From Octopus vulgaris (taxonomy: Eukaryota): a DNA stretch of 64,000 nt. The notes under the pieces were generated by a model. That model was not told where the DNA came from, searched no databases, and saw only the letters and a program-made list of their open reading frames with translations. Where the stretch lies: NCBI GenBank assembly GCA_951406725.2, contig OX597838.1:25854001-25918000 (forward strand), given 5' to 3'. Shown in pieces: positions 3,306-30,756 of the stretch. How positions within the stretch are numbered: position 1 is the first letter of the stretch; each line of letters begins with the position of its first letter. The translations under genes were made by a program, and so were the position numbers.

Positions 3306-3352
<47 letters not shown>

Positions 3353-3441
3353 AGAAGAAAATGGATATAATAACAATGGGAAACTCGTGGTTTACACTAG
3401 CATGTCTTTAATTAAATCGGTAACAAAGGAGAGATGAGGTG

Positions 3442-3492
3442 GCATTTACGATTGTTTCGATTTACTGGTTTAAGTAAATCTCTTCAGAATGC
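3442..3492 (-). ncRNA. minimal type I hammerhead ribozyme (Penelope/retrozyme type)
   Basis: minus strand GCAUU-CUGAAGA-GAUUUAC(UUAAACCA)GUAAAUC-GAA-AC(AAUC)GU-A-AAUGC: complete core with perfect stems I and II. Confidence 0.85.
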
Positions 3493-4073
3493 AAAGATAG
3501 ATAGATAGATGCATCAGTTAGGATGCGAAAATGATTGATACATATGTGATGGTGATGTAAACAAATTGGTAATTCTTACATTAAATTTTTGTTCTTGCAC
3601 TGGTAAATTCGCTGAGTAGAGGTTTGCTTGTAGTAGATTGGTTAGTTTCGTTGGGAAATTAGGGCAGGGTGAATATCATTTAGGTGCAAGCTACTTCGTT
3701 TAATTAAGCACGTGTGTGTGTGTGTGCATATGCACACAATTTTCAGCTACGAAATTCATTGGCAAGGCATTGATTAGTCATAGGGTATAGTAGAAGACAC
3801 TTACCCAAGGTGCTGCGCTGTGTGACTGAACCTGAAACCGCATAATCGCAAAACAGGCTTTAAACCACACAGCCACGACTGCACTTATACAAATATTCTT
3901 TCAACACATTTTCTATAACATTTACCATAGACACTTTTATGCAGCTCTTTCTTTGTATGTGCATTCAGTTAGAGGTCCCTGTTAAACATCAGTTCATAGC
4001 TGTGTGTAGGTGTATACAGCTGCACACAATCAACTGCATCACTGCACTATCATCTGTGTTGTTGTCTTTACAG

Positions 4074-4176
4074 GTCTCTTGTGGTTCATGGGTTCACAGT
4101 TGATGCGGATGGTAAGAAAATGTCCAAATCTGTCGGAAATGTCATAGATCCGATGGATGTTGTGGATGGATCCAAG
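4074..4176 (+). CDS. IARS2: IARS2 exon with class I aaRS KMSKS motif ([34 protein letters not shown])
   Basis: ttacag acceptor, aag|gtaggc donor; HGF...KMSKSxGNVIDP. Confidence 0.97.
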
Positions 4177-4411
4177 GTAGGCACATTTGGCCTACATGTG
4201 ATGTTATAGGCTTTTATCCTATTCATTCTCCTATGTTCTCACACACACACATTCTTTATTTCTTATGGTCATGTGCTGCGGTGGTTGCCAACCTCCTACT
4301 TCTATCCAACAGCAGTTTACTCTCCTCCTCCTCCTCCTTCTCCTCCTCCTCCTCTAATAGATGGTCTCTCATCACTGACTTTGTATTTTTTGTTGGTTTC
4401 TTTCACTTCAG

Positions 4412-4534
4412 GCCAGTGGTATTCCATCCTATGGAGCTGATGTCCTGCGATGGTGGGTGGCCACTTCGGGACTACAGAGTAACATCCCCATCGGAAGTTC
4501 AATCCTCACCAGGTGTAACGAGGAAGTATTTCGG
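4412..4534 (+). CDS. IARS2: IARS2 exon (ASGIPSYGADVLRWWVATSGLQSNIPIGSSILTRCNEEVFR)
   Basis: cttcag acceptor, cgg|gtgagt donor; YGADVLRWWVA motif. Confidence 0.96.
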
Positions 4535-4557
4535 GTGAGTGAGAATGAAAATTTTAC

Positions 4558-4560
<3 letters not shown>

Positions 4561-4612
<52 letters not shown>

Positions 4613-4815
4613 CTACTTTCGGCACAAGGCCTGAAATATTTTGTAGAGGTGTGCTGTTAATTACATCGACCTCAGTACTCCACTGGTACTTATTTTATCG
4701 ACCCTCAGAGGATGAAAGGTAAAATTGACTGGCGAAATTTGAATTCAGAATGTAGGTGGACAAAATTCCACTAGGCATTCTGCCTGGTATGCTAATGATT
4801 CTGCCAGCTTGTCAC
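4561..4815 (-). mobile_element. tRNA-derived SINE with gcctttcatcct..gggtcgataaaataagtacc core and (TTA)n tail
   Basis: same family as the tandem arrays; core resembles the Meta-domain SINE core. Confidence 0.8.
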
Positions 4816-5479
4816 TTTAGCATCATCATCATGATAATAATCTACTATAATAATACTCTTGTGTTTTTCTCCAACACAACATGTGAATGAAAAAGGAAAG
4901 GGTGATAAGTGAATAAGGAAGGAAGGGGTGATGGCAAATTGGTAGTGGCAGCATTTCAACTCTGTGTGTGTATATGTAAAAGGGAGGTATGTGAATGTGT
5001 GTGTGTGTGTGTGTGTGCAATGAAAGTGGGATAGTGAACATTCAACGCTGAAAAGAAAAATCAAACAGCGTTTCAACTCTGTGTGAGTATATGTGTGTGT
5101 GTTAGTACAAGGGAAGTATGTGAATGTTTGTATGTGTGAACCAGTGTTCTTTCAGTAACAAATGATGATCGATGTCACATCAAGCCGAGCAAAATCGCAG
5201 GCGTGGCAGATACCGGTGTCACACAAATGGCACATAAAAGCACCCATTACACTCTCAGAGTGGTTGGCATTAAGAAGGGCCATCCAGCCGTAGAAAACCA
5301 TGCCAAATCAGACTGAAATCTGGTGCAGCCTTCCAGCATGCCAGCCTGGTCAAACCACCCAACCTATACCAGTATGGACAGCAGACATTAACTGATGATG
5401 ATGATAACGATAATGATCTCAAAAGACAACCATTAGATAACATTGACTAGTGTATTAATTTGATTTACCATCCATATAT

Positions 5480-5872
5480 TCTTTTACTCGTTTACTTCTT
5501 TCAGTCATTTGACTGCGGCCATTCTGGAGCACCGCCTTTAGTCGAGCAAACCGACCCCAGGACTTATTCTTTGTAAGCCTAGTACTTATTCTATCGGTCT
5601 CTTTTTGCCAAACCGCTAAGTTATGGGGACATAAACACGCCAGCATCGGTTGTCAAGCGATGCTGGGGGGACAAACACACACACACACACACACACATAT
5701 ACATACATATATACGATGGGCTTCTGTTCAGTTTCCGTCTACCAAATCCACTCACAAAGCTTTGGTTGGCCCGAGGCTATAGTAGAAGACACTTGCCCAA
5801 GTTGCCACACAGTGGGACTGAACCCCAGAACCACGTAGCTGGTAAGGAAGCTACTTACCACACAGCCACTCC
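5480..5872 (-). mobile_element. tRNA-derived SINE with internal (CA/TA)n
   Basis: near-identical to 7065-7468; head ggctgtgtggtaag...ggttcagtccc. Confidence 0.85.
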
Positions 5873-6024
5873 TATGCCTATGTATGTATGTATATATGTC
5901 ATGTATGTCACATATATATATGTGTGATATGTAAGGAGTACATTTGTTGGTGTGCCTGTGTCTGTTGCATACATGTAACATGAAGATGTAACATAATGTT
6001 GTTGTTTTTGTTTGTTTGTTGCAG

Positions 6025-6156
6025 TTACGCAAGACTTGCCGGTTCCTGTTGGGTAATCTCTGGGATTTCACACCTGACAAAGACAGCGTCTCCTACAACC
6101 AGCTGCTTGCACAGGACAGCTATATGTTGCACCTGCTGCATGACTTTGCACTCAAG
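6025..6156 (+). CDS. IARS2: IARS2 exon, anticodon-binding domain (LRKTCRFLLGNLWDF...LLHDFALK)
   Basis: ttgcag acceptor, aag|gtaagg donor; LRxTxRFLLGNL motif. Confidence 0.95.
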
Positions 6157-6183
6157 GTAAGGATACATGTGAGTGTGTGTGTT

Positions 6184-6227
<44 letters not shown>

Positions 6228-6584
6228 TAGTTGTAAGAGGAAGATTGTACACACACACTCTTCCTCATACAACTAGACTCTTCTTCACCACACATATATA
6301 TATACATACACCCACACATATATGCACACATAGACACATATGCACACACATAAACATGCACCCACACATACATGTACACATACACACATACATACACATA
6401 TACACTCCTTCAGATCTACTGGATGCCTATTCTTATGTCACTTACCAATGAGACCCTTGCACTCATGAAATTTGCCAAAAGTACTGTTGTTGCACTCTTT
6501 ATAAGCCAGACCAGGTCTGACCTGTGAGTCATCCACAAAAACTGCTCATGATGATGATGATGATGATGTATGTGTTTGTTGCAG

Positions 6585-6691
6585 GCGATCCAACTTTATG
6601 CTGACCATCGTTACAATAAAGTCACTTCTATTGTTGACCGCTTCATCAGTGCTGATGTATCCAGTTTCTACAGTTCCATTATCAAAGACAG
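6585..6691 (+). CDS. IARS2: IARS2 exon (AIQLYADHRYNKVTSIVDRFISADVSSFYSSIIKDR)
   Basis: ttgcag acceptor, ag|gtataa donor; SxFY..IIKDR motif. Confidence 0.94.
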
Positions 6692-7064
6692 GTATAAAGT
6701 CTTCTCTCTCTCACTGTCTCTCTCCCTCACTCTCTCTCTCTCTGTCTCCCTCTCTCTCACTGTCTCTCTCTCCCTCTCTCTCACTGTCTCTCTCACTGTC
6801 TCTCTCTCTCTCTCTCTCTGCTTTTATGTGTATGACCAAATGTGTGTATTTCTGTGTGAGTCAAGTTACAGGATTCTGTTTATGAGGTGGGGATGGGGGG
6901 ATGTAAACACTCATCGTTTTTACTCATACGATGAAAGCACCTACACTCACACGCATATGCTCCCCCCACATGCACACACTTGGATATACATATACACATG
7001 GCAGGCTTCTGTACAATCTCTTTCTATCAGCTGTTGCACACAGGGCATTTGTTGGTCTGGGATA

Positions 7065-7468
7065 TTCTTACTCTTTTGCTTGTTTCAGTCATTTGACTGC
7101 GGCCATGCTGGAGCACTGCCTTTAGTCGAGCAAATCGACCCCAGGACTTATTCTTTGTAAGCCTAGTACTTATTCTATCGGTCTCTTTTGCTGAACCACT
7201 AAGTTACGGGGATGTAAACACACCAGCATCAATTGTCAAGTGATGTTGGGGGGACAAACACAGACACACAAACACATACACACGGATACATATATACATA
7301 CATATATACGACGGGCTTCTTTCAGTTTCCATCTACCAAATCCACTCACAAGGCTTTGGTCGGCCTGAGGTTATAGTAGAAGACACTTGCCCAAGGTGCC
7401 ACGCAGTGGGAATGAACCCGGAACTATGCGGTTGGTAAGCAAGCTACTTACCACACAGCCACACCTGC
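7065..7468 (-). mobile_element. tRNA-derived SINE, same family as 5480-5872
   Basis: colinear high similarity; further copies near 2790, 12678-13487, 29740, 57130. Confidence 0.85.
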
Positions 7469-8055
7469 AAACTTTTAAGTCACACAGCCATGTGTGTGTG
7501 TGTGTGTGTGTGTGTGTTAGCATGTGTTCATAGCCGCATATCTTTGCCTTGTTACCATCTTGCTGGTGACATTGCTTCTAATTCCCATAAACAAAATGTC
7601 TGGGAAAACTGGGTGTAAAAAAATAAGGATTATGTACATATATATATGCATGTATGTGTACAAATATATGTCTATATATGTATATTTATATATGTATGTC
7701 TATGTATGTGTGTACAAATGTATATTTGTGTGTGTGTATGTATATATATGTGTGTGTGTATGTGGAAGTGTGTAGTTTAGTGGTTATGGTGTTGGACAAC
7801 TGTAAGATTGTGGTTTCAATTCCTGGACTGAGTGATGCATTGTGTTCTTGAGCAAGACACTTTATTTCATGTTGCTCCAGTCCACTCAGCTGGCAAACAT
7901 GAGTGATCCTGTCTGGTGAAGGAATATATACCCCACAGAAACTGGGAAACTAGAATGACAAGCCTATATCACTTAGAAAGGACCTTTGATCTGTGTGCGT
8001 GCATATTTGTGTGCGTACATATGTATATATTTATATGTATATATACATACATGTA

Positions 8056-8292
8056 CAGGGTGGCCCAAAAGTAGGTTTACAGTTATTCAACTATCTCTTT
8101 CGCATTCATATATTAACAGTTTAGATCTTAATTATAAAAAAAAATATGAAACCATTATTCTATGCTAATTTAGTTAATTTTATCAAGCTCCCTTTTCAGT
8201 TTGTAACATGAAAATTTAAATGTAATAAAATGTTTTAAAAAACATTCAAAGTGCCTATGTGAAAACTGTAGACCTACTTTTGGGCCACCCTG
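8056..8292. mobile_element. Tc1/mariner-type MITE
   Basis: 29-bp TIRs cagggtggcccaaaagtaggt(t/c)tacagtt, TA on both flanks. Confidence 0.92.
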
Positions 8293-8312
8293 TATATATA
8301 AATATATATATA

Positions 8313-8366
<54 letters not shown>

Positions 8367-8389
8367 AGTGTATAAGCTTATCCTTACAG

Positions 8390-8544
8390 GTGTTACTGTG
8401 ACAGTAGAGACAGCCTTGCGAGAAGGTCCTGCCAGACAGTCCAGTACAATATATTAGATGTTCTGATTAGGCTTTTGGCACCAATTCTGCCACACTTTGC
8501 CGAGGAAGTCTTCCAATATTTACCAAAATTACAACACCAACAAG
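8390..8544 (+). CDS. IARS2: IARS2 exon (CYCDSRDSLARRSCQTV...APILPHFAEEVFQYLPKLQHQQ)
   Basis: ttacag acceptor, g|gtaaca donor; RRSCQT and APILPHxAEEV motifs. Confidence 0.95.
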
Positions 8545-8859
8545 GTAACAACATCAGTTTCCTTTCCTTCCATGTCAGTGTCTCCTTCCCTGCATGCCTC
8601 TCTGTCTATATTGCTGTTTGTCTGTCTTCCAACCACTGTTACTCACCTGCCTACCTACTTATCTACCTACCATCCATCCTTCCTGCCCCACCTATCTCTC
8701 TCTCTCTCACACACACACAAATGAATAAATAGAGTTTCAGAGATGCTTATTATGCGAACCAGTCAAACTTTTCCCTATTTCAAAAGAAAGCTTTTTTCCA
8801 TTAGAACCATAAATAAATTTATATAACCTTTTCAATTTCCATCCAGCTTCACTCAGAAT

Positions 8860-10030
8860 TCCTGGGAAGGGCAAGGTGGGAGATAAATTCCTCAGGCACC
8901 TTCTGTACAGGCTCCTATCAGAAGCAACCATCATTACACTTCCCTGCTGGATCCCGAAATATCACCAACTCAGACTAAGGATATTATCCAACCATCTCAT
9001 TCTAGGTCGACCCCTAGGTCTCCTACCAGTCAAAGGGTAGAGTCTTCAGGTACCTCCTCCATAATGTCTTATCAGAAGCAACCATCATTACACTTCCCTG
9101 CTGGATCTCCAAGCATGACCAACTCAGACTATGGACATTATCCAGCCATCTCATTCTTGGTCTACCCCTTGGTCTCCTACCAATTGGCTTGGTTTGAAAA
9201 ATCCATTTTGCAATTCTTTCCTGTGACATTCTAATCACATGTCCATAATATCAGAGCCATGACCTCTCAATGCAGAGAAGTGGTGGCTCAATCTGGAGAG
9301 ACTGCCTGATTGCTGAGCTACACACCCTGTCAAGTAATACCAACTACTTCAGAAATCCTTTAGCAGACCTCCATTTCATCCACTTAGTATTCATGATTAT
9401 TTCAGTCACTACCCAACATTCATGACCAACTCCATCAATATTATCCAACCATTTCATTCTTGGTCCACCCCTTTGTCTCCTGCCTTATCTTGATTAATCC
9501 ATCATGCAATTCTTTCCTGCAACATTCTAATCACATGTCCATAGTAGTGGAGCTGTGACTTCTCAATGCAGAGAAGTGGTGGCTCAACCTGGAGAGACTC
9601 CATGATCTCTGAGTTAAACATCCTGTTAAGTAATGCTAGTCTAGAGATCCTTTAGTGGACAGCACTTCAGCCACTTGTATTCGTGATTGTACTCTTGGTC
9701 ATCACCCAACATTCCCGACTAACTGCAACTATGGACATTATCCAACCACCTCATTCTTGGTTTACCCCTTAGGTCTTCTGCTGGCTGGTGCAGCTTAAAG
9801 AATCTGTCTTGAAATTTTTTCATGCAACATTCCAATCACATGTCTATACTACCTGAGCTGTGATCCCTCGATGCAGAGACATAGTGGCCTGACCTGGAGA
9901 GATGCCCTGATCTCTGAGCAAGATCTTTCAGAAGAAAGCCATTTCAGCCACTTGCTTTTGTGATTGTACTCTTTCAGTCATTACCCAACATTTATGAACA
10001 TAGGTAAGGATTGGCACAAAAACTGAATTA
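8860..10030 (-). mobile_element. tandemly reiterated 3' fragments of an RTE-clade LINE
   Basis: ORF 9023-9238 IRMSQERIAK...GRRPRGRPRMRWLD...DKTLWR matches RTE ORF C-terminal motifs; about 4 diverged overlapping copies. Confidence 0.75.
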
Positions 10031-11186
10031 AACATAAGACACTTTAAGCTTTTCCATCCATTGTCTTGTCTGTAACATTATGGGGCATAAATTGTGTAAA
10101 TTTAGATCTTTGGCCCTTTAGCATTTAAACTGGCCAAATCCATGTAAAAAGCATCCAGTTCACACTGTGAAGTGGTTGGAATTTGGAAGGGCATCCAGCT
10201 GTAAAAACTGTGCCTAAGCAAACCTCACCAATGTTTGTACCATGTAAAAAGCACCCAGGTCACTCTGTAAAGTGGTTGGCATTAGGAAGGGCATCCAGCT
10301 GCAGAAACCATGCCGAAACAGACAGTAAAGTCTGGTGCAGTCTTCTGTCTTGCCAGCTCTTGTCAAACTGTCCAACCCACGCCAGCATGGAAAACAGACA
10401 TTAAATGATGATGATGATGATGATATCTGGCCAAAACATTCTACCTGTTTTATATTCAAATTGGCCATATCTGGTCTTTCACACCTACCCTGTAATGCCA
10501 TTCTTGAAATAAACCACCATATCATCAAAGTTTCAAAGCTGCAGGGTCATAAATGATTAATTTAGAACAATGTGAATAAATAAGCCTTAAATTTGGAGGG
10601 AGAGATCTGAATGTTGAAGGGGTAACAAGATAAAGAAATGGATAGCATTTAGTTGTTGAGTATGATGTCTGCTTCTGGTTTGTAAGTTTAAAATTTGTTG
10701 AAATGGAAAAGTGCATAAAAATTATGAATAAATCACAAACACCATTGCTGATATGAATAAATACTTATTTCTTTAATACCCACAAGGGGCTAAACATAGA
10801 GGGGACAAACAAGGACAGACATAGTTATTAAGTCGATTACATCGACCCCAGTGCGTATTCTCCACAGCTAATTCCATCACCACCCATGTCACCACTGGCA
10901 CCATCACCACCACCACCACCATCATATCATGACTACCACTATCATTACCATCACCACCTCCATAACCAAGACTACCACCACCACCATCGCCAGCAAGACC
11001 ACCACCACCTCTAAAACCGTCACCTTCATCACCACCACCACCATCATCACCAAAACCATCACAACTACCATCACCATCAGCACTACACTATCGTCCCTCT
11101 GCTACCACAAAGGTGAAGCTGATATAAATGAATGCTAACCACTCCCTTCTTTTTTTCTTTTTTTTTTTTCCATCTCATGTCCCCAG

Positions 11187-11374
11187 ATTGTAACAGTCTG
11201 TTTAAGACTACAGGCCACAACATCAACCCAGAATGGGAAGATTTAGCAGGTTACCACCGTTTTCAACCAAGTCTGCAGATCAAGGCCCGGTTCAACGAAA
11301 TGATTGGTCCAGAGACCCCTTCCTCCTTTGATGTCGTCATCTGGGCTTCTGGTGACCTTTATGATAACCTTAAG
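11187..11374 (+). CDS. IARS2: IARS2 exon (DCNSLFKTTGHNINPEWEDL...SGDLYDNLK)
   Basis: ccccag acceptor after a pyrimidine tract, aag|gtaagt donor; phase matches both neighbours. Confidence 0.9.
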
Positions 11375-11380
11375 GTAAGT

Positions 11381-11414
<34 letters not shown>

Positions 11415-11738
11415 TACATGTACATACATAGACACACACATATCATCATTTAATGTCTTTTGCCCATGCTGGCATGGGTTGGACAGTTTGACCTCTCAAA
11501 GGAGGACAACAGATGATGATTTAAAACTTTTTTTTAATATATTGGAGAGTTAGGTAATTAACGAAGGGGGATAATTGTCCTAGAGGGAGCAATTGTCCTC
11601 AGTGGGTAATTGTCCTGATATGTGCTGGGGAGCTGCACCAGACTCCAGTGTGATTTGGTATGGTTTCTATGGGTGGATGCCCTTCCTAACACCAACCACT
11701 TTACAGAGTGTGCTGGATGCTCTTATATGGCACTATGC

Positions 11739-11963
11739 CAGTGCTTTTCAAACTTTTTGCTGGAGCGGAACCCCAAGGAAACATTCCACTGGCTCGAGGA
11801 ACCCCTGTGCAATAATTTAATAGTCTTATGCACACATATCTGCACAGGAGACTTTAAAATTACTGCCGATTTTAGCAGTTTTGTAACTTCTTGCGGAATC
11901 CCTGGACTGTACTGGCGTCTGCATAACCCTAAGGTTCTGCGGAACCCCAGTTGAAAACCACTG
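11739..11963. mobile_element. hAT (Charlie/Buster-like) MITE nested in a SINE-like repeat
   Basis: TIRs cagtgcttttcaa / ttgaaaaccactg; perfect 8-bp TSD CACTATGC at 11731-11738 and 11964-11971. Confidence 0.93.
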
Positions 11964-12278
11964 CACTATGCAGACACTTTTATATGGTGCTGAATGAGCG
12001 CCTTTACGTGGTACTGCATAGGTGCTTATATGTTGCACCACACAGGTGCTTGTACATGCTGCTGCATGGGCACTTTTATGTGGTACTGCCATGAGTGCTT
12101 TACACGATCAGAAGGATCGATCCTAACACTTCTGCTGCAGAGCAAGGGTCTTCATGAGTACAGCAAGGTGCCAGGAATTATCGGCCCTTTGTCATCTTGC
12201 CTGAAAGCTTTGGCATCTCGAGGTCATTCTTCAGTACTTCATCCCATGTCTTCCTGGGTCTCCCTCTTCCGCATGTTC

Positions 12279-12316
<38 letters not shown>

Positions 12317-12354
12317 TGCACATATACATATGCACACATTCTGTTTGTTTTCAG

Positions 12355-12499
12355 GTGTTACAGCCCACCTATGTATCGACTAATTCTGCCCTTGTGGAGA
12401 TCTTGCAAGCATCACAAGTTTCCCTTAGCAACCAGAGACTGGATTCTGCCATGGACGACGTTGAATTGGTAACTGCCTCTTGTTCGTTATATAAACCAG
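12355..12499 (+). CDS. IARS2: IARS2 exon (VLQPTYVSTNSALVEILQASQVSL...ASCSLYKP)
   Basis: tttcag acceptor, cag|gtgaga donor giving the phase 1 required by the last exon; LxEIL..SQV motif. Confidence 0.88.
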
Positions 12500-14188
12500 G
12501 TGAGATCTTCCTTTTAATCCCCACTCAACTCAAACACTCACTCTCAACTGTAACTTCCTCTACTCAACTATACCACACCACACCTCACCACCATAACCCC
12601 GCTACACTATGAATATGTGACTTGGTAAGTCCAGGGTACCCTCTACTTTGAAATCCACCAAAGGAACTTCCTATAGGAAGTGGAGTGGCTGTGTAGTAAG
12701 ATATTAGCTTCCCAACCACATGGTTCCAGGTTCAGTCCCACTGTGTAATACCTTGGGTTAGTGTCTTCTACAATAGCCTCAAGCTGACCAAGCCCTTGTG
12801 AGTGAATTTGGTAGATGGAAACTGAAAGAAGCCCATTCATCATCATTTAGCGTCCGCTTTCCATGCTAGCATGGGTTGGACGGTTCAACTGGGGTCTGGG
12901 AAGCCAGGAGGCTGCACCAGGCTCCAGTCTGATCTGGCAGTGTTTCTATGGCTGGATGCCCTTCCTAACGCCAACCACTCCGTGAGTGTAGTAGGTGCTT
13001 TTTACGTGCCACCAGCACAGGGGCCAGGCGAGACTGGCAACGGCCACGATTGGATGGTGCTTTTTACGTTGCACTGGCATGGAGGCCCGTAGGGGGCGGC
13101 GCTGGCAATGGCCACGTTGTATATATATTGTATATATATATATATATGATGATGATATATATATATATATGTCACCACAACTGTCATCACCACCATTAGG
13201 ATGTTTTTGTATATATATATGATGATGGTATTTATATATGTCTGTATGTATGTATATGTGTGTGTGTTTGTTCCCCTCCACCACTTGACATCTGGTGTTG
13301 GTGTGTTTATGTCCCTGTAACTTAATGGTTCAGCAAAAGAGACCAATAGGATAGTCTCTTTTTTTTTTTAAAAAAAGCAAACTTTAAAAAAAGAAAAAAG
13401 TACTGGGGGTGATTCATTTGACTAACTCTTCTTCAAGGTTGTGCCCCAGCATGGCCACAGTCTGACGACTGAAACAAGTAAAAGATAGTGGGGTCCCAAT
13501 TAAACTTTGCTAAGTGTAAGCTGAAACATCTATCTATCACCTTTATGTATTACAGAGGCAGTGCATTGGGGTGCTTACTGGTTAGGCCACATTATTCCGT
13601 AAGGAGCACAGGGTCAGCTTCCTGGTTTCTCTGGCGTATACATTCCTCGTGGGATGGGACACCAGTCCATTGCAGAATTACTCATTTTTTCCAGCTGGAG
13701 AAATGAAGTGTTTTGCTCAAGAAGACAATGCATCACCTGGTCCAGGAATCGAAACCTCAATCTTCTGACCATGAGTCCAACACCCTAACCACTAAGCATG
13801 GGATGGTTCTTGCTTACTTAAAATCAGATCTGTCATGGACCCCAGGATTCCTAAGGCCAGAGCTTATCCCATTTCCCATGGGGTGTAAGTGACTGAAATT
13901 TTGACATTCCTCTCCCCTGTAGAGGACGCTGGTCTCTCTCAGGGTTAACTTCCCAGTTATTGCTGGAACACATTTACAGCTGAATGGACTGGTGCAACGT
14001 GAAATGAATTGTCTTGCTCAAGAACACAATGCATTGCCAGGCCTTGTGCCTATTGTAGAAAGGATTATTGTAACACCACCACTATTAGGATATTTTTGTT
14101 TTTGTTTATTTTTAAATGTGTTTTTTGTTTTCTTTTTAACTCTCTCCCTTTTTTGTTTTTCTTTTTTTTTTTGTTTATTTCTCTCCAG

Positions 14189-14340
14189 ATTCGGATGCAA
14201 CCGAGAAGCATGACTATGTGATGGGGGTGTTACCTTGCCAACTCTACATGTGCACCAGATGTCGCAGATCTGTGGCTAAATCGTCGGCCCTGAGGTTCTG
14301 TTCTCGATGTGCAGATGTCATAGCTGAAGACTACCAATGA
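14189..14340 (+). CDS. IARS2: IARS2 last coding exon with C-terminal zinc finger (...MCTRCRR...FCSRCADVIAEDYQ*)
   Basis: ctccag acceptor after a long pyrimidine tract; CxRC-x-CxRC zinc finger of IleRS; TGA at 14338-14340. Confidence 0.93.
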
Positions 14341-14649
14341 GTGCAGCTCTCTGAACTCACACTCACATTGTCTCCAGCTCTTTCTGTCTGTCTGTCTGTC
14401 TGTCTGTCTCTCACTGAAGTGATCTCAAAGGAGAGTGAGATCACTCGATTCATGAGTGAAGATGCTTGTCTGTCTGTCTGTCTCTCTTTCTCAAGAAAAA
14501 AATGCAGACTTCCTACCAGCGAGTATAGCTTTTTCTTTTCTTTCCTTTAAAGCTGAAACCTTCATTAAGTGAAGCAGTCTCCATTAAGAGCTCCCCTTCC
14601 TCAAGGAATTCTGAAGAAAGACAACTCTATCAAAATATCCATCAATCTT

Positions 14650-15012
14650 ACTGTCTGTCTGTCTGTCTCTGTCTGCTGTCTCTCTCTCTCACTATCTCTA
14701 TCTTTCTTTTTCCCCTTCTCTCTCCTTTTGTTTGTTTGTTTGTTTCTTTCTTTCTTTCTCTCTCCTTTTGTTTCTTTGTTTGTGTTTCTTTCTGTCTGTT
14801 ACTCTCTCTCTTTCTTTTTTTCTGTCTGTTTCTCTCTCTCTTTATTTCTCCTTTTCTTTCTTTCTCCTTTTGTTTCTTTCTTTCTTTCTGTCTCTGTCTG
14901 TCTGTTGCTCTCTTTCTCTCTTTCTTTCTCTCTTTATTTCTCCTTTACTTTCTCTCTCCTTTTGTTTGTTTGTTTCTGTCTGTCTGTCTATCTCTGTTTT
15001 TCTCTCTCTACT
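14650..15012 (+). repeat. long CT/T-rich low-complexity tract
   Basis: (ct)n, (tttc)n, (gtct)n, (gttt)n mosaic. Confidence 0.9.
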
Positions 15013-15082
15013 TTGGAAGCTTGTGATATTCCCTCTTATGAAATGTCAGTACTACGCTAATGAGTGATGCTCAGATATCAAG

Positions 15083-15680
15083 GAGTGCAGCTGTATAGCT
15101 CCACTCAAATGTCAGCAGCAGATGACACATTGAGGGATGGAGCCATCATGTCACTCTCTCTATTCAAGGACGACAGAAGACAGGGGACTCATACCAAACC
15201 TTCAGTGGGAGTGCAGTTGTATAGCTTCACTCAAGTGACAACTGCAGACTGTCTGTGAGTGCAACTGTCAATCCACACTTGAATAACAACTGTAAACTCA
15301 AAGAGTGCAGCTGTATATCTCAAATCAAATGACAACAGAGACTACCAGTGAGTGTAGCTGTTCATCTCTACTCAAGTGATAACAGAAGACCCAGTGAGTG
15401 CAACAGTAAGTCTCCATTCAAGTGACAACAGTGTCAGTGAGTGCAGCTGTCAGTCTCCACTAAAATGACAACAGCAGTCTATCAGTGAGTGAATCTGTAA
15501 GTTTGTACTCAAGTGACAACAGTTGACTTGAGTGTATTTGTAAGTCCGCACTCAAGTGACAGCAATAGACTCAGTGAGTGCAGCTGTCAGTCTGCACTCA
15601 AATGAGAACAACACTCTGTCAGTGAGTGGAACTTTCAGTCTCCACTCAAGTGACAACAACAGACCCAGTGAATGCAACTA
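15083..15680 (+). repeat. degenerate tandem array of ~12 units (43-49 bp), each with an internal hairpin, downstream of the IARS2 stop
   Basis: recurring cagTGAGTGcagctgtcagtctcCACTCAagtgacaaca; perfect 9-bp stem at 15575-15600. Confidence 0.9.
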
Positions 15681-17111
15681 TAACTAATGAGGACATTATT
15701 GTGAAATCGTTAAGAAAATAATTGTTTAAATTTGTAAAAGTCATCTTTTGATGATTTTAAAATCTGTGATTCAACGGAAATTGAATTGTTTTTTGTTTGT
15801 TTGTCTTTGATATTAAATTGTTTTGATTACATGGTAGTCCTGTCATAAATGAGAGATGAGGGCCCTGCAGCTTGTTGCTGAGTAACCTGTAGGGATCATT
15901 TGTTTAATGTTTGTGCTGTGCATCAGCTCCCTTCCCCTCCAACAGATCGGCCCCTGAGACGAAGGGATTACTGAATAAAGTGAAATAAATAAAGTGTTTT
16001 GCTCAGGAAAACAATGCATAGCTTGGTCTGGGAATTGAAACCGTGATCTTGGGATCATGAGTGCAACACCCTAAACACTAGACCATTAGCCTTCACATTG
16101 ATTATATACTTACATACATACATATGCACACACACACACACACACACTCACACATATGCAAGCTTGCATGCATACATCTACAAATACATGTATGTTAACA
16201 TCCATGTATACACACACACACACACATACAGAGGCATAAACATTACACACATGTACATACACACACACATGCAGGCATGCATACAGACATACACTCATAC
16301 ATATATAGATATGTATGTATATAAACATCTATGCAGAGAGACACATACAGACACACAGATACACATATACATAAATACACATACATACCTCATATACACA
16401 CACATTACACAGACATACATTAGACATAAACACACACATACCTAAACATATACATTACACACACACATATTACATATAAACACACATACATTACACACAC
16501 ATATTACACAAACACACACACACATGCATATATTACACACATATACAAACACGGACACACACTCACACACACAATGAATGTTATGTTGACGATGGGTATT
16601 TTGTGGATTAAATCAAGTAAACTCATCATAAATTTACATATATGTGCCTGAGTACTCCATAGACACATGTACCTCCGAAATACAGATACAGTCCACATGG
16701 CAGGTTTCCGCATACTTTCTATTCACTTATTTTCGGTCACATAGCTCGGGTCCGTCGAAGGCCATGGTAAAAAAAAATACACTTGGTCCAAGATATTGCC
16801 TAGTTGGGGATTGAACTGAGAAACGATGCAACTTCAAAAGGCAAACTGCTTGAATGTGTCTGCATCCATTCACAGAGGTACAGAAGGCAGAAGGAGACAA
16901 TTGGGAGCGGCTGTTTTGATGTTGGTAGCTGCTAGGCACAGTGGAGTGGACATTGAACTTGGCTTGGCCACAGTACTTTTTGGCACTGGATAGAACTGAC
17001 TCACACACACATGCATGCACTGCATGGAAACATAGATAGATAGATGGACATGATATATGTATTTACATTATTTATATTTGACGGATATTTGTCCTCATCT
17101 TGCTTGTTGCT

Positions 17112-17157
17112 AACACAACATTTCAGCTGATATGCCCTCCAGCCTTCATCAGGTATC
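17112..17157 (-). ncRNA. hammerhead ribozyme motif in left arm of palindromic element
   Basis: GAUAC-CUGAUGA-A-GGCUG(10 nt)CAGCU-GAA-AUGU-U-GUGUU; loopless stem III implies a dimeric fold. Confidence 0.6.
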
Positions 17158-17406
17158 TTGGGGAAACTTCGAACCTGGGTTCTCATTCCTAAGGTATTTT
17201 TTGATGTTATTGTTGTTATTATTATTATTCAGGTCACTGCCTGGAATCGAATATGTCCATGGTCATAAGACGTAGTGGTTAAGAGCTTGGGCTACTAACC
17301 CCAAGATTCCGAGCTTGATTCTAGGCTGTGACCTGAATAATAATAATAATAACAACAACATTGAAAAATACCTTGGAATGAGAACCCAGGTTCGAAATTT
17401 CCCCAA

Positions 17407-17450
17407 GACACCTGATGAAGGCTGGGGGGTATATCAGCCAAAACGTATTA
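17407..17450 (+). ncRNA. degenerate hammerhead motif in right arm of palindromic element
   Basis: GACAC-CUGAUGA-A-GGCUG...CAGCC-AAAACGU; G12 mutated to A. Confidence 0.45.
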
Positions 17451-19192
17451 ACAACAAAAAAGATGAGGATAAATATCTGTCGAATGTAAATAATGTACAT
17501 AATTCCTCATCTCTTAAATATAGAACTGTATGATATATGTAGATGCACACATACACACACACATTTACATATGCATATATGTACATACACATGCACACAC
17601 GTGTATGTATATATATATATATGCCAATTTTGTACAAGACATTGTAGATCTTTAGCTGGGCTAAAAAGTCACATGCGATCACAGCACCAGTAACAGTTAA
17701 GCTTCGTGCAATGGCCATACTCGATAACAAGGGGGCAGCCATAATATATATATATATAATATATATATATACAAACACGTACATAAATACAAGTACATTC
17801 ACAGACATCCTCACATGTATACACACACACACGAGATAGATAGAGAGAGAGACATAATGATTAATTGAACATTATTGACATAAACCTTTCCTTCTGCTCA
17901 TAAATGCTTTCTCTCTTATACACATTATCATGATCATTTAATGTTCACTTTTCCATGCTTGCATGAGTCAGAAGGAATATATTTGAGGCAAATTTTCTAC
18001 TGCTGGATGCACTTCCTGTCACCAACCATCACCTGTTTCTAAATTAGGTACTACTTCTCCATGGCCAGACATATTGGAAATGAACGACACTGCTTGTATG
18101 ACAATGACACTCATTTACAACTATATATCTATGTATATATATGAGTTTGTGTCTTGACATCCTGTAATAGTTGTAAATGAATGTTTTATATATATATATA
18201 TAAAAGTAGAGGACATTGGAAACGCAAATCCTAGGCTGTCAAACAGATTGCCAACTTTAATACTTTATGTCCGCTTGATCATAATTCGTCTAGGAATTAA
18301 ACAACAAAAGACTGCAACTTGTTTACGACCGTATGACAAACAAGCTCAACTTATTAAATGAAACCAAAGTTACTTTTCAGCAGCTAGTTAAAAAAAAAAA
18401 TTAATTCCTTGGAAATTTTACGTCGACGCTTCGCAGTAAACACGCACAATTGGTAAAACTTACGAAGTGATGGGTTATACATACGAAGGGAGATAACTGT
18501 CATGGTATGTTTTCAAAGGGAAGTAACTCTATTTTCACGCAATAGTTTCAAATTTCAATCTGTTACTCCTTTTTTTAAAGAACTTATTTCAGTCATTAGA
18601 CTGCGGCCAAACTGGGGCACTGCCATGAAGGGGTTATTACTTTTTTTTATTTCTCTTCCAAGGCAGATCAAATGGTAACATAAGAATGAAAAGACGTGCA
18701 ATCATTGTTGTCATGTGTGAAACAGCAATTTAGAAATGGCCAACTTTCTACAAATCTTTTATTCAAAATATGAAAAGGAATATAATTTACAAAAAGAAAA
18801 AAAGGGAGAAAGAAGAAATGTTGCAAGATATGTTGTACAGAATCTTCGGACGAAATTTGAAACCTCTCACAGGAATGTTTCAACTACACCAAGAAAAAAA
18901 AAAGTATTCTAGACGTTCGGACACTATAAGGACACGACATTTCAAACAACGGGTCCAAATCATTATCGATGGTGATCCTGGAAAATCGGTGAGGAATGGA
19001 TTATCGGAACTCTGGTGCTTGAGGGGAGGGGCAAATTCATGCCTGAAAATTTGCAGGAGAACCATTCGACCCGTTCCAAGTGGTTCCTAAGTTAGATTAA
19101 AACTCTCGCGAACATAGCAGGCTTTGATTCGTCTTTGATTAGAAAAAGTTCCACCAAAACTAAAAGTGTAACAGGAAAAGTGACGGACGGTT

Positions 19193-19340
19193 CGCCGAGG
19201 TCGACTTTGCCTTTCATCCTTTCGGGGTCGATAAATAAAGTACCAGTTACGCACTGGGGTCGATGTAATCGACTTAATCCCTTTGTTTGTCCTTGTTTGT
19301 CCCCTCGGTGTTTAGCCCCTTGTGGGTAGTAAAGAAATAT
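19193..19340 (+). mobile_element. 5'-truncated SINE with intact CpGs inserted in the fossil transposase
   Basis: cgccgaggtcgactttgcctttcatcctttcggggtcgataaataaagtacc; tail matches 10760-10857 in reverse. Confidence 0.85.
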
Positions 19341-19383
19341 ATTTGCAGAACCTTTTGACGTTTCCAGAGCGATGCATAACGCG

Positions 19384-19398
19384 CCGGAAGTGACGTCA
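19384..19398 (+). promoter_or_regulatory. overlapping ETS-CRE composite motif CCGGAAGTGACGTCA
   Basis: exact 15-bp match to the GABPA/CREB composite motif; aag|gtgaga donor ~125 bp downstream; function unproven. Confidence 0.5.
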
Positions 19399-20918
19399 GA
19401 TAAGAAGCGGAGTATTCGAATAGCGAGAACTGATTGCATGGTCGGAATCTTCGTAGAGTGTCTCAGAGTTTTTCAGTCGGAGTTTGAGTTGTTTCCTTCT
19501 TCGAGACAGTGCCCAACTTAAGGTGAGAAACACTTTCTTTCCGTCCTTCATACTACACACATTAAGTTTCCAGCAACTGTATTAGTTTTAGGGGTGGTCA
19601 ATGACTCCTCACGTATACATACATATCTATATTTGTATGAGTGTATGTCTGTATGCATGCCTGTGTGTGTGTATGTACATGTGTGTAATGTTTATGCCTC
19701 TAGGTCGTGTCATGCCTCCTCACATCTTTCGAAATTGTCTTAGAATTAATGCTGCTGGTTACGTCGAAGCGCTGGAGACAGTTGTGAAACTCTGGGCTAG
19801 TGAAGTACGCAGTGGAAGGTCGTAGGTATTTCAGCACGTCTCAGTACCTTTTTTCAAAGCCCTCACAACACTAGAATGGATGTCGGGCAATTTTTACGAT
19901 TATGTACCGTCAAACTCGTGGCCTCCAAATTAGCTAGAGTACATACAAGCACAGACATGCTGATGTACGTATAGGCACGTGCACACACGCATATATCTAG
20001 GCACAGATACACGCATATTTATGCAGGCATATACACAAACATACAAACACGTGCATGTATACACAAAAACTTGCATATACAGATATATGTACACACATGA
20101 ATGAACATATACATCCACGAAGGTGAACGCAAACTCGTGGATTCTAAACATATACAAGGAAATATAAAACCATATAGACACACAAATGTAGGCACTTACA
20201 TACAAATGCAGACAAACCTATGTAGGCGCAGACACATATAGTTGTGTGCATATTCTTTACTTTCGCCCCCATGCTTATGGTTTTGAATGTTAGACTGTAC
20301 AGCATAGTCTTTGGGTAAGCAGACTTGTGTGTTTGTATAAAATGTTGGTATGGCCAAGTGTTTAAGAAATTTGCTTTCCAATCACAGATCCTGTATTTGA
20401 TTCCAAAAGCCCTAAGTTGAGAACTTGGTTAGACCAGTGGTTCTCAAACGGGATCCATATGGTTCCTTTGGACAGTGCCATCTTAGGCACTGTCATGGTA
20501 TTAGCTGTCAGAAGTGAAAGTAGAAAAATCTGATGTCAACTTCGTGTATTTACGTTAGCTAATTCCGTGGTAGTGCCCCATCTTAAAGCATGAGAACACT
20601 GAGTAATTACCCAGTTCTGATCTCTGCTGTGGTTTGCTGTCACTATATACTGCAGGGCACAGGGCATTGATGAATTCAGGGACCTATAATGTTGTGAAGG
20701 TGACTCTGCTTGGACGTCTGTATAAGATTTAATTGTTTGTGAGAAATGAATTAATTATACGTAAAGTATACTAGCCATCTCAATATGGCTAACCACTAAG
20801 GGTGGGTGTTACTGTAGCTTTTAGCCCCAGGAGATCATCGTCTCCAGCTGGCTTTAGATACACTTTCTGTGCCCTTATGATATTTGCAAAGGGAGGTCAT
20901 CCTCTCTCGTAAACCTAA

Positions 20919-20978
20919 GTGATACGCATGGACTGCAGTTTCGAGGTTTTTTGCCTCTTGTCAACATACGGTAATCAC
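20919..20978 (-). ncRNA. type I hammerhead ribozyme, U3:A8 core variant
   Basis: CGUAUG-UUGACAA-GAGG(CAAAAAA)CCUC-GAA-AC(UGCA)GU-C-CAUGCG; palindromic stem III, GUC cleavage triplet, stem I extendable by GUGAU/AUCAC. Confidence 0.75.
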
Positions 20979-21779
20979 CGGTTTTTGATGAGGAGAGACC
21001 TGTTTGCGAATATCTATTTAATGTTTTTCCCAGTAACCACTGTCACTGATTTCGAAAAACTGTCTGAAAGCAATAATAAATCTCTGAACGAGATGTAAAC
21101 AGGGGAGAGGCGGTGGGGAAAGTTTACTAAAAAGTTTGCCAGGGGAGGAGATATAACCAGCATTAAAGATTCTGGATGGCCTCAACAGGTAGCTGTGGAA
21201 GTCATCTCAGACACGGATCTTTTCAAGGTAATAAACTCCTTCCCAGAAGATGCATTCCGCTTCTGATTAAGGTGACCTGACCCGGCACTATCGGAGTGCT
21301 TAAGTGACACTTTGAGCCTGGTTGGGTGCCAGTGGGGCAGAAAATAGTAAAAATTAAGAGGCCGAGTGCCTCATACTGAAAGGACATATGGCCCATAAGA
21401 GAAAATGTAAGAGGCCTAGTGTCTCATTTTTCAGGACATGGTATTATTTTTGATAAGAGGCTTAGTGTCTCATTGTAAGGACCTTGTGTCCAATGGAACA
21501 TTAATAAGACGTTTATTACCTCAAATTGTGTGTTTTGTAAAAGAACAATGTTTTCAAGAAGCAGCAGGCATCGTCTGCCTTCCCTCATTAATACCATTTT
21601 TTTCATCATTCATCTCATTGTTATTGTCCAGCATGCAGGTACTACTTCTTTGTAATACCTTGATGGCAAATTGAATGAAATAAAGTGCTTATGTGAGAAG
21701 ATCTCTCAAGGCTTATAATGCAATATTTGGCATTCTAAGAAGACTTTAATATTGCTTTTGTTGCTAATAATCAATTTTT

Positions 21780-22101
21780 ACAGAGATGTACTTGCATAGC
21801 AAGTGACCTGATCTGAGATCGTGTGCTGGAACAAAAACAATTGCAGTGTGGAAGGTGTTTATTAGCCATTTAAGAAACACACAGAAACCGTTAGATTCAC
21901 TTCAACATTTAGATTTAATTTGTCGAAATATTTTTCGTTGCTTTGAGACCGCGACCTATTCAGCACGGAATTTTGTTAGTGAACAGGTTGCAGTCTCAAA
22001 ACGACGAAAATATTTCGGCGAATTAAATTTAAATGTTGAAGTGAATCTAACGGTTTTTGTGTGTTTCTTAAATGGCTTATAAACACCTTCCACGCTGCAA
22101 T
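21780..22101. mobile_element. palindromic Penelope-like repeat
   Basis: ~120-bp inverted arms 21840-21962 and 21980-22101 with a hammerhead-like fold next to the centre. Confidence 0.7.
21969..22024 (+). ncRNA. hammerhead-like motif, G3:C8 core variant (decayed copy)
   Basis: UUUGUU-A-GUGAACA-G-GUUGC(9 nt)ACGAC-GAA-AAUAUU-U-C-GGCGAA; the opposite arm supplies GUCGC and GACAAAUU, improving stems II and I. Confidence 0.5.
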
Positions 22102-23111
22102 CAATTTTTAATATTACCTTAATTTCTTTTTTACTATTGTGGCCTTAGATGAGCCATGTCTCATGTGACTGACATTTTGCAAAAGGTTGCCCTTGCCTGG
22201 GTTAAAGTATGATAAGGACTGGGGAATAAAAGGAGGTTCTTGCATGGTCACTCACATTTAGCAGGAGCTGCAAAGAGATAGGTAGTTGCAATGAGGTGCC
22301 CATGTGATCCCTTAAGGCACTAAGGGATTAGAAGTGGGTGGTTTGTTAGATTAAACGACTAATTGTTGCCGACAATTTATGAACTAGCATACAGTTTTAG
22401 ATTTTAGCCTATTGGGGGTAAGGCAGACATGCACAGTCAACTGTTACATTTAATAGGGGGTACGCACACAAATAGGGAGGAATGTTTTAGTAAGAAAATT
22501 GTTAACCCCTGCCCCTCAAAAAAAAACAAAAAAACAAACAAATCCTACTCTGAAAGATATTCAAAGCATGAATGAAGATAAAGATAGCATGAAATGATGG
22601 TGATTACGATGATGATGATGGTGAAGATGGTGGTGATAATGATGGTGATGATGATGATATTAGAGATAATGACAAATTAAGAGAAATATAAAAACACAAG
22701 ACCGTGAAAGTCTGTACAAAATTGTTTTTATTATTTTAGTTGAGTTGTTTGTTGTTTTTATTTCTTTTTTCTCTTTTTTTTTCTGAAATTCTACGAAACT
22801 GTACAGTGTAGGTAGGTATTAGTCAGTCACACAATTATGAAGACAATATTTCCAGTCCCAAGGTGGCAAAGAGGGAGGGAGGGAGGGAGGGAGCGAGAAG
22901 GAGAAAGAAAGAGAAGGGAGCAGGAGGAACAATTCCTTAATGTTGATTTCCCTTCAGAAAGAAGGAATAAATCCATTTAAGAATTTAAAAAAAAAAAATT
23001 TTAATCTAAAATAATATCTCACACACACACACCTCATGATTAAAGATGATAAAAAAATTAACTTAATTTCACTAACAAAATGAAATGGAAAACTTTGTAT
23101 GCATGTGTGTG

Positions 23112-23149
<38 letters not shown>

Positions 23150-23185
23150 CTGTGTGTGTGTGTGTGTGTGTATATTTCTTATACT

Positions 23186-23278
23186 AGAATGTTGTTGACA
23201 GTGACTGCGAAGTTTTGGCCAGCTAAGCCCTCATCAGACGGCTGGTCAAAACTTCAAAGTTATTGTCAACAACATTCT
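23186..23278. repeat. short foldback repeat, Penelope-like
   Basis: agaatgttgttgaca...ggccagc and gctggtc...tgtcaacaacattct inverted arms (~38 bp). Confidence 0.7.
23197..23240 (-). ncRNA. degenerate hammerhead motif
   Basis: GU-CUGAUGA-G-GGC(UUAGCUG)GCC-AAA-ACU(UCGC)AGU-C-ACUGUC; G12>A, 5' strand of stem I truncated by the inversion. Confidence 0.45.
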
Positions 23279-23368
23279 TGTTTTAAGAGTAATAAATTTG
23301 TACTCAACAAAAGAACAGATTAATGTAAAATTGTTTTTTTATGTTCAGTTATGATAAAAACTAATATC

Positions 23369-27340: not shown

Positions 27341-27376
<36 letters not shown>

Positions 27377-27515
27377 GTTTCAAATTTTGGCACAAAGCCA
27401 GCAAGTTCAGGGGAGGGTGTAAGTCGATTGCATCGACCCCAGTATGCAACTGGTACTTATTTCATCGATCCCGAAAGGATGAAAGGCAAAGTCGACCTCG
27501 GCGGAATTTGAAATA
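25915..27515 (-). mobile_element. head-to-tail array of ~8 SINE copies separated by (AAT)n
   Basis: repeated ggcacaagg...gaccccag...ctggtac...gaaaggatgaaaggcaaagtcgacc...gaatttgaactcag. Confidence 0.85.

Positions 27516-30721: not shown

Positions 30722-30756
<35 letters not shown>

What the first reader, a model, noticed from the sequence alone, without database searches (positions are those of the whole stretch)
3442..23278. A set of hammerhead-ribozyme retroelements showing three Watson-Crick versions of the catalytic 3:8 pair
Seen: five repeats with dissimilar flanks (3442-3492, 17112-17157/17407-17450, 20919-20978, 21969-22024, 23197-23240) fold as stem I - NUGANNA - stem II - GAA - tiny, mostly palindromic stem III - UH - stem I. 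Their cores read CUGAAGA/CUGAUGA (C3:G8), UUGACAA (U3:A8) and GUGAACA (G3:C8). Established: positions 3 and 8 form a tertiary base pair whose compensatory swaps retain cleavage, and minimal type I hammerheads with palindromic stem III mark Penelope-like elements and retrozymes, acting as dimers. Inference: this genome hosts several self-cleaving non-autonomous retroelement families, two of which would be missed by CUGANGA-based searches. Covariation of the pair suggests selection on catalysis.
Basis: partly seen in the sequence, partly recalled or inferred. Interest (0 to 1): 0.9.

Follow-up and report, generated by a model that had tools for sequence, protein, structure and literature searches.

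The report
Jumping repeats with swapped ribozyme cores
Five families of short jumping repeats in this animal genome carry small self-cutting RNA motifs of a known kind, and one family with thousands of copies has the key paired letters of the motif reversed, a form so far known mainly from laboratory mutants; whether it cuts has not been shown.

Summary
All five sites belong to dispersed repeat families whose copies form minimal type I hammerheads with C3:G8 (three families), U3:A8 or G3:C8 cores. Several window copies are decayed; two lack G12. [quoted passage not shown] The 17-kb family is the terminal repeat of a degraded RT/GIY-YIG PLE. The U3:A8 family is a head-to-tail ~360-nt retrozyme with a C3:G8 sister. 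PLE hammerheads and U3:A8 are published. The G3:C8 family is the new part: a linear 209-nt element, 5,145 intact motifs, 96 of 100 listed being G3:C8, with older relatives that share its stems. I found no paper reporting natural G3:C8, but three key papers were unavailable; this scan noted G3:C8 earlier in protist PLEs and phages. Against 'selection on catalysis': older relatives amplified mostly with C3·A8 or U3·G8 (16 of 21), G3:C8 copies are not in tandem, and their dimer helix is weak. No cleavage or expression data. Verdict: new variant of a known kind.

The parts
3345..3711 (-). Copy of the '3.4-kb' repeat family (unit about 550 nt, with an optional 3' tail of about 140 nt); parent element not found
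3442..3492 (-). Minimal type I hammerhead, C3:G8 core, 8-bp stem II, A17; one change in the stem III palindrome
17050..17061 (+). Left 12-bp target-site duplication of the 17-kb insertion
17064..17229 (-). Inverted, 5'-truncated arm of the 17-kb PLE terminal repeat
17112..17157 (-). Minimal hammerhead, C3:G8, extra base after A9, U17; in full-length copies it lies inside the start of the PLE reading frame
17256..17338 (+). tRNA-like head of the 17-kb family (box motifs judged from recall; ARAGORN calls no tRNA), also present upstream of the hammerhead in ORF-bearing copies
17407..17450 (+). Decayed hammerhead copy (G12 changed to A, three bases missing at the cleavage site)
17452..17531 (+). 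3' end and tail of the 17-kb family; in other loci it continues into the PLE ORF
17530..17541 (+). Right 12-bp target-site duplication
20759..21102 (-). Slightly 5'-truncated monomer of the U3:A8 retrozyme-like family (head-to-tail unit about 357-367 nt)
20920..20977 (-). Type I hammerhead with U3:A8 core, 6-bp stem I plus extension, 4-bp stem II, 8-nt palindrome, C17; intact in this copy
21769..21780 (+). Left 12-bp target-site duplication of the G3:C8 insertion
21778..21962 (-). Inverted, 5'-truncated copy of the G3:C8 element with its 60-nt tail; the junction removes position 3, and position 8 is changed to U
21958..22101 (+). Tail-less copy of the 209-nt G3:C8 element
21969..22024 (+). Hammerhead with G3:C8 core (G3 = 21979, C8 = 21984), extra G after A9, 6-nt palindrome, U17; stems I and II partly decayed in this copy
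22099..22110 (+). Right 12-bp target-site duplication
23172..23242 (-). Arm of the old '23-kb' family holding a decayed hammerhead (C3:G8 core, G12 changed to A, palindrome broken)
23241..23342 (+). Inverted arm of the same insertion, lacking the 5' half of the core, with tail

Best explanation
These are short Penelope-like-element (PLE) derivatives that carry the PLE terminal-repeat hammerhead. An RNA with the terminal-repeat region is bound by a PLE RT/GIY-YIG protein (its own for the 17-kb family, borrowed for the others), which nicks AT-rich DNA and reverse-transcribes from one of two internal start sites; that gives the fixed 3' ends, the optional tail, the inverted arms and the target duplications. 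The hammerhead fold is kept by selection on successive master elements. Its core pair has switched between C3:G8, U3:A8 and G3:C8, and passed through U3·G8 and C3·A8 states. Cleavage is probably slow, conditional on a partner RNA or the PLE protein, and not required for each insertion. For the tandem U3:A8/C3:G8 retrozyme pair it probably cuts multimers into unit-length RNAs; for the linear G3:C8 element it is probably an attenuated ribozyme whose fold matters at least as much as its chemistry. Shown here: sequences, anatomy, homology, covariation, one parent ORF. Inferred: trans-mobilisation, transcription, any cleavage.
For: Dispersed families with 378-2,489 first-look candidates each. Sharp 3' ends, tails and inverted arms; 12-bp target duplications around two window insertions; these match PLE anatomy in PMC8557442 and the two RT starts in PMC11167929 (passages). 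17-kb family: hammerhead and tail run into an ORF with RVT_1 (E 1.4e-8) and a GIY-YIG-like piece (E 5e-5 to a Pfam GIY-YIG hit; layout). U3:A8: two cores 357 nt apart in L014, and a 359-nt tandem sister with C3:G8 in L188 (237 of 342 aligned bases identical; score outside the hammerhead 124 versus -54 +/- 13); 5 of 16 pairs change on both sides, 0 of 500 shuffles as high. G3:C8: 5,145 exact matches with 3, 7 and 8 free, control 0; 96 of the first 100 listed are G3:C8 while loop II varies by subfamily; 23 of 26 tail-selected copies that reach the core. Relatives homologous outside the hammerhead (score 40 versus 20 +/- 3) show two-sided changes at 3:8, 15.2:16.2 and in stem I. C3G/G8C partly rescues a PLE hammerhead, which needs the PLE protein (PMC11167929, passages).
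Against: No cleavage, transcription or circular RNA is shown; the listed runs are contigs not on record as RNA. No autonomous parent found for four of five families; 0 of 40 tail-selected G3:C8 copies share sequence beyond the 3' end, and my search for one was narrow. Old relatives are mostly not Watson-Crick at 3:8 (9 C·A, 7 U·G, 3 C:G, 2 U:A of 21 scorable among 39). Within that old group alone covariation does not exceed shuffles. The two-sided changes are few events inherited by many copies. The tree is unrooted and its deep branches are weak. Rfam gives no hammerhead hit, not even for the C3:G8 array.
Confidence: 0.75

Rival explanations
1. One reading: all families, G3:C8 included, are efficient self-cleaving elements acting as dimers, and the 3:8 swaps were selected for catalysis.
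For: Three Watson-Crick states, each fixed in a family; G3:C8 is found both in very divergent old copies and in the young burst; strong palindromes in the U3:A8 and 3.4-kb families (-11.1 and -10.0 kcal/mol); tandem copies in the U3:A8 clan.
Against: G3:C8 palindrome duplex only -0.2 kcal/mol; one near head-to-tail junction genome-wide, with a spacer; 5' ends of 40 copies do not pile up at the cleavage site; old subfamilies spread with C3·A8 or U3·G8; published minimal PLE hammerheads cleave weakly even as dimers (PMC4209133).
Confidence: 0.3
2. The G3:C8 lineage is a catalytically dead hammerhead relic: the fold is kept as a protein-binding or RNA-stabilising element and positions 3 and 8 drifted, landing on a complementary pair by chance.
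For: Masters with non-Watson-Crick 3:8 states amplified while keeping stem I pairing through a two-sided change (A-U 11, U-A 6 of 21); cleavage is dispensable for insertion in vitro (PMC11167929).
Against: G3:C8 needs two transversions from any pyrimidine-3/purine-8 state and is kept across old and young subfamilies while N7 and loop II change; U4, G5, A6, A9, G12, A13, A14, A15.1 and U16.1 stay at the hammerhead consensus in all subfamily majorities.
Confidence: 0.3
3. The motifs are chance hairpins in foldback DNA repeats (MITE-like) and have nothing to do with ribozymes.
For: Three window sites lie in inverted repeats; 4 of 6 window copies fold no better than shuffles; no Rfam hit.
Against: 3 descriptor hits versus 0.1-0.3 expected; full 13-base core in five unrelated families; two-sided changes; the inversion points vary from copy to copy; one family is tied to a PLE ORF.
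Confidence: 0.03

Closest known systems
Minimal type I hammerheads of Penelope-like elements (Cervera and de la Pena 2014, PMC4209133)
   Same: Type I topology, tiny palindromic stem III, extra base between 9 and 10.1 (17-kb, 23-kb, G3:C8 families), frequent U17, thousands of mostly single copies, several families per genome, and the U3-A8 variant (about 1,300 hits in Schistosoma mansoni).
   Different: That paper's text (parts 1-2 of 4) and the two searchable supplement files mention no G3:C8 core and no octopus; one supplement file could not be searched.
Non-LTR retrozymes of animals (PMC7229834; bioRxiv 10.64898/2026.07.22.740005)
   Same: U3:A8 family and its C3:G8 sister: head-to-tail monomers of about 360 nt, one hammerhead each, no ORF.
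   Different: U3:A8 core; mostly single 5'-truncated copies; circular RNA not shown. The G3:C8 element is linear with a fixed 5' end and not tandem, so it does not fit.
Poseidon PLE of the green anole, PAc (PMC11167929)
   Same: Hammerhead overlapping the ORF start (17-kb family), two 3' ends that define a tail, AT-rich targets.
   Different: There C3G/G8C is an engineered, partly active mutant; here it is the natural state of a family of thousands of copies.
Natural hammerhead core variants (Perreault et al. 2011, PMC3088659)
   Same: Natural C3:G8 to U3:A8 covariation.
   Different: Section 8 names only U3/A8 as the natural swap; G3:C8 is not listed.

Membership tests
Minimal type I hammerhead ribozyme | Core N3-UGA-N7-N8-A ... 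GAA-A ... UH with paired 3 and 8 | tested here: met
   Family majorities; not met in the window copies at 17407 and 23197 (G12 lost)
Minimal type I hammerhead ribozyme | Stems I and II supported by pairing and two-sided changes | tested here: met
   (0 of 500 shuffles; few independent events); not tested for the 3.4-kb, 17-kb and 23-kb families beyond pairing
Minimal type I hammerhead ribozyme | Palindromic stem III able to form a dimer helix | tested here: inconclusive
   Strong for U3:A8 and 3.4-kb, marginal for G3:C8; imperfect in the old relatives
Minimal type I hammerhead ribozyme | Site-specific self-cleavage after H17 | not testable with these tools
   No assay; contigs cannot show RNA ends
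Rfam hammerhead families | Score against curated covariance models | tested here: not met
   No hammerhead row or among the 150 of 197 rows shown; the canonical C3:G8 array is missed too, so the models do not cover this minimal form
Penelope-like element (autonomous) | RT plus C-terminal GIY-YIG ORF next to the terminal repeat | tested here: met
   17-kb family only; copies are broken by stops and frameshifts
Penelope-like element (autonomous) | ORF-bearing parent for the G3:C8, U3:A8, 3.4-kb and 23-kb families | tested here: not met
   None; samples of 29-70 loci per family, so rare parents could be missed
PLE-type insertion | Fixed 3' end, optional tail, 5' truncation, inverted 5' arm, target duplication | tested here: met
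   target duplications read for the 17-kb and G3:C8 window insertions only
Non-LTR retrozyme | Head-to-tail monomers of 170-400 nt, one hammerhead each (U3:A8 family and sister) | tested here: met
   joint 21102 to 20759-20761 in contigs of 4 of 4 runs
Non-LTR retrozyme | Head-to-tail monomers (G3:C8 family) | tested here: not met
   One match genome-wide, with a spacer; none
Non-LTR retrozyme | Circular and unit-length RNAs in vivo | not testable with these tools
   No listed run is on record as RNA; the junction exists in genomic DNA

The most novel reading that the evidence does not exclude
The 209-nt element is a PLE-dependent SINE-like retroposon whose natural G3:C8 hammerhead cleaves, probably with help from the PLE protein; its lineage records in one genome the whole series C:G, U·G, C·A, U:A and G:C at the 3:8 pair, that is, the evolutionary path by which a catalytic tertiary pair is inverted, and natural G3:C8 is not yet in print.
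Probability: 0.25. Interest if true: 0.72.

Novelty: new variant of a known kind. Interest (0 to 1): 0.5.

Why it matters
The role of hammerheads in Penelope-like elements is open: they are nearly universal, yet cleave weakly and are dispensable for insertion in vitro. This genome offers a natural allelic series in related elements (C:G, U:A, G:C, and the half-way U·G and C·A states) with copy numbers and ages attached, so cleavage rate can be set against amplification success. It also shows that hammerhead counts from CUGANGA descriptors or Rfam miss thousands of motifs in one animal genome.

Tried and rejected
Rfam scans of the window and of family copies gave only microsatellite-driven miRNA hits and noise. 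ARAGORN found no tRNA. ORF lists of the window showed no PLE ORF. PLE-like ORFs in L057/L155, L088/L156 and L098 lie beside family copies but belong to other insertions. The shared 5' flank of L010-L013 is a segmental duplication, not a parent element. The 31-codon open frame in the G3:C8 tail did not lead to a parent: six of the longest frames ran into unrelated or simple sequence. A second GUGAACA match at 40374 (-) is not a family copy. Expression: no RNA holder listed; contigs of four runs hold both the U3:A8 and G3:C8 families but cannot show strand, ends or level. U17 in the G3:C8 family avoids the G3-C17 trap suggested by PMC3884650, but U17 is shared with the old relatives and common in PLE hammerheads, so I rejected it as evidence of co-adaptation. 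The random census covers only 200 kb: 3 full G3:C8 cores and one fragment, none of the other four families, too little for copy numbers. A fourth Watson-Crick state (A3:U8) was not seen as a family in any fetched DNA. Three papers that bear on novelty and activity were not held: Lunse et al. on about variant PLE hammerheads (PMC5785218), Przybilski and Hammann on 3:8 exchanges (PMC1986816), Nelson and Uhlenbeck (PMC2271363). No look-alike or same-genome earlier findings.
Full report
Setting. The window lies in G000, contig C25, a 2.8-Gb genome in 227 contigs. It is repeat- and microsatellite-rich and shows no credible long ORF. Its common repeats look like those of an octopus; that is recall, not a test.

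Observation. All named motifs are present. A descriptor with free positions 3 and 8 gave 3 hits in the window against 0.3 per shuffle, 0.1 with a Watson-Crick pair (30 shuffles). The remaining three named copies are decayed: two have A in place of G12, one of these also lacks three bases at the cleavage site, and the G3:C8 copy has changes in both stems. Each site is a member of a dispersed family (first-look candidates 1,470, 1,662, 2,489, 805 and 378). In the 29-30 loci fetched per family the majority sequence has the whole hammerhead core and a palindromic stem III; the 3:8 counts are U:A 29 of 30, G:C 30 of 30, C:G 29 of 30, 30 of 30 and 13 of 29. These loci were picked by likeness to the window copy and include it. 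The five families are not alike outside the core. Rfam recognises none of them, nor a canonical C3:G8 array.

Anatomy. In the hammerhead's sense all five families have sharp 3' ends, an optional tail and variable or inverted 5' parts. The window insertions at 17 kb and 21.9 kb are flanked by 12-bp direct duplications. This is the structure described for PLE insertions (PMC8557442, passages), and the tail corresponds to two reverse-transcription starts in the anole PLE (PMC11167929, part 1 of 4 and passages).

17-kb family. Its tail continues into a reading frame; a protein search gave 665 candidates. In 30 fetched loci the order head, hammerhead, tail, ORF recurs, and three loci show RT motifs. 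The RT piece of L159 scores as RVT_1 (E 1.4e-8; two other pieces had no Pfam hit); those two pieces match GIY-YIG-bearing fragments weakly (E 5e-5 and 1e-5). So this is the terminal repeat of a degraded Penelope/Poseidon-type element (clade from recall of motifs), with the hammerhead inside the ORF start as in the anole element.

U3:A8 family. The 3' end joins the 5' region head to tail; L014 has two cores 357 nt apart; the same joint stands in contigs of 4 of 4 runs laid. One of 20 random 10-kb stretches held a 359-nt tandem array that is a sister over the whole unit (237 of 342 aligned bases; score outside the hammerhead 124 versus -54 +/- 13) and has C3:G8. On 26 distinct rows, 97.4% of cells pair, 5 of 16 pairs change on both sides, and the 3:8 column reads U:A 23, C:G 2, other 1. 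This is a retrozyme-type element (PMC7229834, passages; bioRxiv 10.64898/2026.07.22.740005, part 1 of 5). U3-A8 is published for PLE hammerheads (PMC4209133, parts 1-2 of 4 and two of three supplement files) and for other natural hammerheads (PMC3088659, section 8).

G3:C8 family. The unit is 209 nt with a fixed 5' end about 24 nt before the core and two 3' ends. A tail peptide search gave 15,087 candidates. I fetched 40 of its 150 listed places, chosen without regard to the core: 26 reach the core, of which 23 are G3:C8, 2 A3:C8 and 1 G3:G8; 13 begin at the full 5' end; all 40 stop at the same 3' end and none continues into shared sequence. A pattern with 3, 7 and 8 free has 5,145 exact matches (control 0); by my count 96 of the first 100 listed are G3:C8, across several loop II subfamilies. 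Only one head-to-tail match exists, with a spacer. The palindrome duplex is -0.2 kcal/mol, against -11.1 and -10.0 in two other families. So this is a linear, SINE-like PLE dependant, not a tandem retrozyme, and a dimer is hard to form.

Its relatives. Patterns keeping stem II found 49 matches each against 0-1 in controls. One search lists 16 U·G, 9 G:C, 8 C·A, 4 C:G, 2 U:A and 10 others. These older elements are homologous to the G3:C8 unit outside the hammerhead (40 versus 20 +/- 3, maximum 33). With columns 3 and 8 masked, a 48-row tree (12 short or unalignable loci left out) separates the pyrimidine-3/purine-8 group (27 rows) from the rest at 99/99, and shows subclades rich in U·G (97/95) and C·A (96/91); G3:C8 occurs both in the young burst and in long-branched old copies; the tree is unrooted and its bootstrap had not settled. 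Of 39 old copies chosen by downstream sequence only, 21 were scorable: 9 C·A, 7 U·G, 3 C:G, 2 U:A (Fisher p 0.03 for an excess of mismatched over matched states, not corrected for relatedness). On 22 young plus 18 old rows (I left out five young rows with junction-cut stems or a second copy, and three old rows with indels) two-sided changes occur at 3:8, at 15.2:16.2 (A-U 20, G-C 13) and in stem I (U-A 27, A-U 9), 0 of 500 shuffles as high. Within the 21 old rows alone covariation is no higher than shuffles.

Reading. The fold and the invariant core bases were kept through many master elements, and the 3:8 pair truly changed within lineages. But masters with U·G or C·A also spread. Published work says minimal PLE hammerheads cleave weakly even as dimers (PMC4209133), and that in the anole PLE single changes at 3 or 8 abolish cleavage, C3G/G8C partly restores it, the protein is needed, and cleavage is not required for insertion in vitro (PMC11167929). 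The most likely picture is PLE-mobilised RNAs with slow, conditional hammerheads: probably used to cut multimers in the tandem clan, attenuated or partly structural in the G3:C8 lineage. Cleavage, transcription and the mobilising partner are inferred, not shown. No listed run is on record as RNA; contigs from four coded organisms hold both variant families, and positions 3 and 8 are not among the 40 best-supported differences shown there (153 rows hidden).

Novelty. Searches for hammerhead with 'G3-C8' (1 paper, an engineered variant, PMC3884650, passages), 'G3C8' (0), 'G3 and C8' (1, unrelated by its listing), C3G/G8C/natural (2), C3U/G8A (1) and octopus showed no natural G3:C8 hammerhead. 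Passages of PMC6765202, PMC6155905, PMC10085705, PMC7151607 and PMC13725137 added none, and a 2026 octopus repeat annotation does not mention ribozymes in its main text (PMC13282606). The largest survey of variant PLE hammerheads (PMC5785218) and two mutational papers were not held, so absence from print is uncertain. This scan noted G3:C8 earlier in two protist PLE findings and two phage findings (unchecked). Verdict: real; known kind; one new variant of moderate interest, 0.5.

Noticed in passing
L188:2263-4900 (G000:C1, near 20.00 Mb): Young, nearly identical 359-nt tandem array with an intact C3:G8 hammerhead in each unit: five sense cores and two inverted ones. The best candidate here for an active retrozyme.
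   Followed up: partly
L006:2013-2076: A closer relative of the U3:A8 family with a C3:G8 core and a different stem II.
   Followed up: partly
L248-L320, L321-L333: Old relatives of the G3:C8 element (1,931 first-look candidates) with U3·G8 and C3·A8 subfamilies; in cis-pair geometry these two wobbles would have similar shape (own knowledge, untested).
   Followed up: yes
window 17256-17338; L162, L164, L166: A tRNA-like head sits upstream of the hammerhead in the terminal repeat of the 17-kb PLE, also in ORF-bearing copies; the inversion junction of many short copies lies at its 5' end. Possibly a Pol III promoter captured by a PLE.
   Followed up: partly
L013, L052, L098, L115, L121, L129, L157, L190, L206: At least eight further hammerhead-like families in flanks and random stretches, among them two more U3:A8-type motifs (L157, L206) and one behind a PLE-like ORF (L098).
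   Followed up: no
window 53182-53517: Array of a 25-nt unit with internal palindromes, about 12 copies.
   Followed up: no
window 4583-4769, 26703-27536, 30556-31163, 33469-33877, 63335-63780 and others: At least a dozen copies of a common SINE-like repeat that I recall from octopus genomes; with the 2.8-Gb size and about 30 large contigs this suggests an octopus (recall, not tested).
   Followed up: no
L155:5159-6484, L156:7522-8091: GIY-YIG-bearing PLE fragments of other families.
   Followed up: partly
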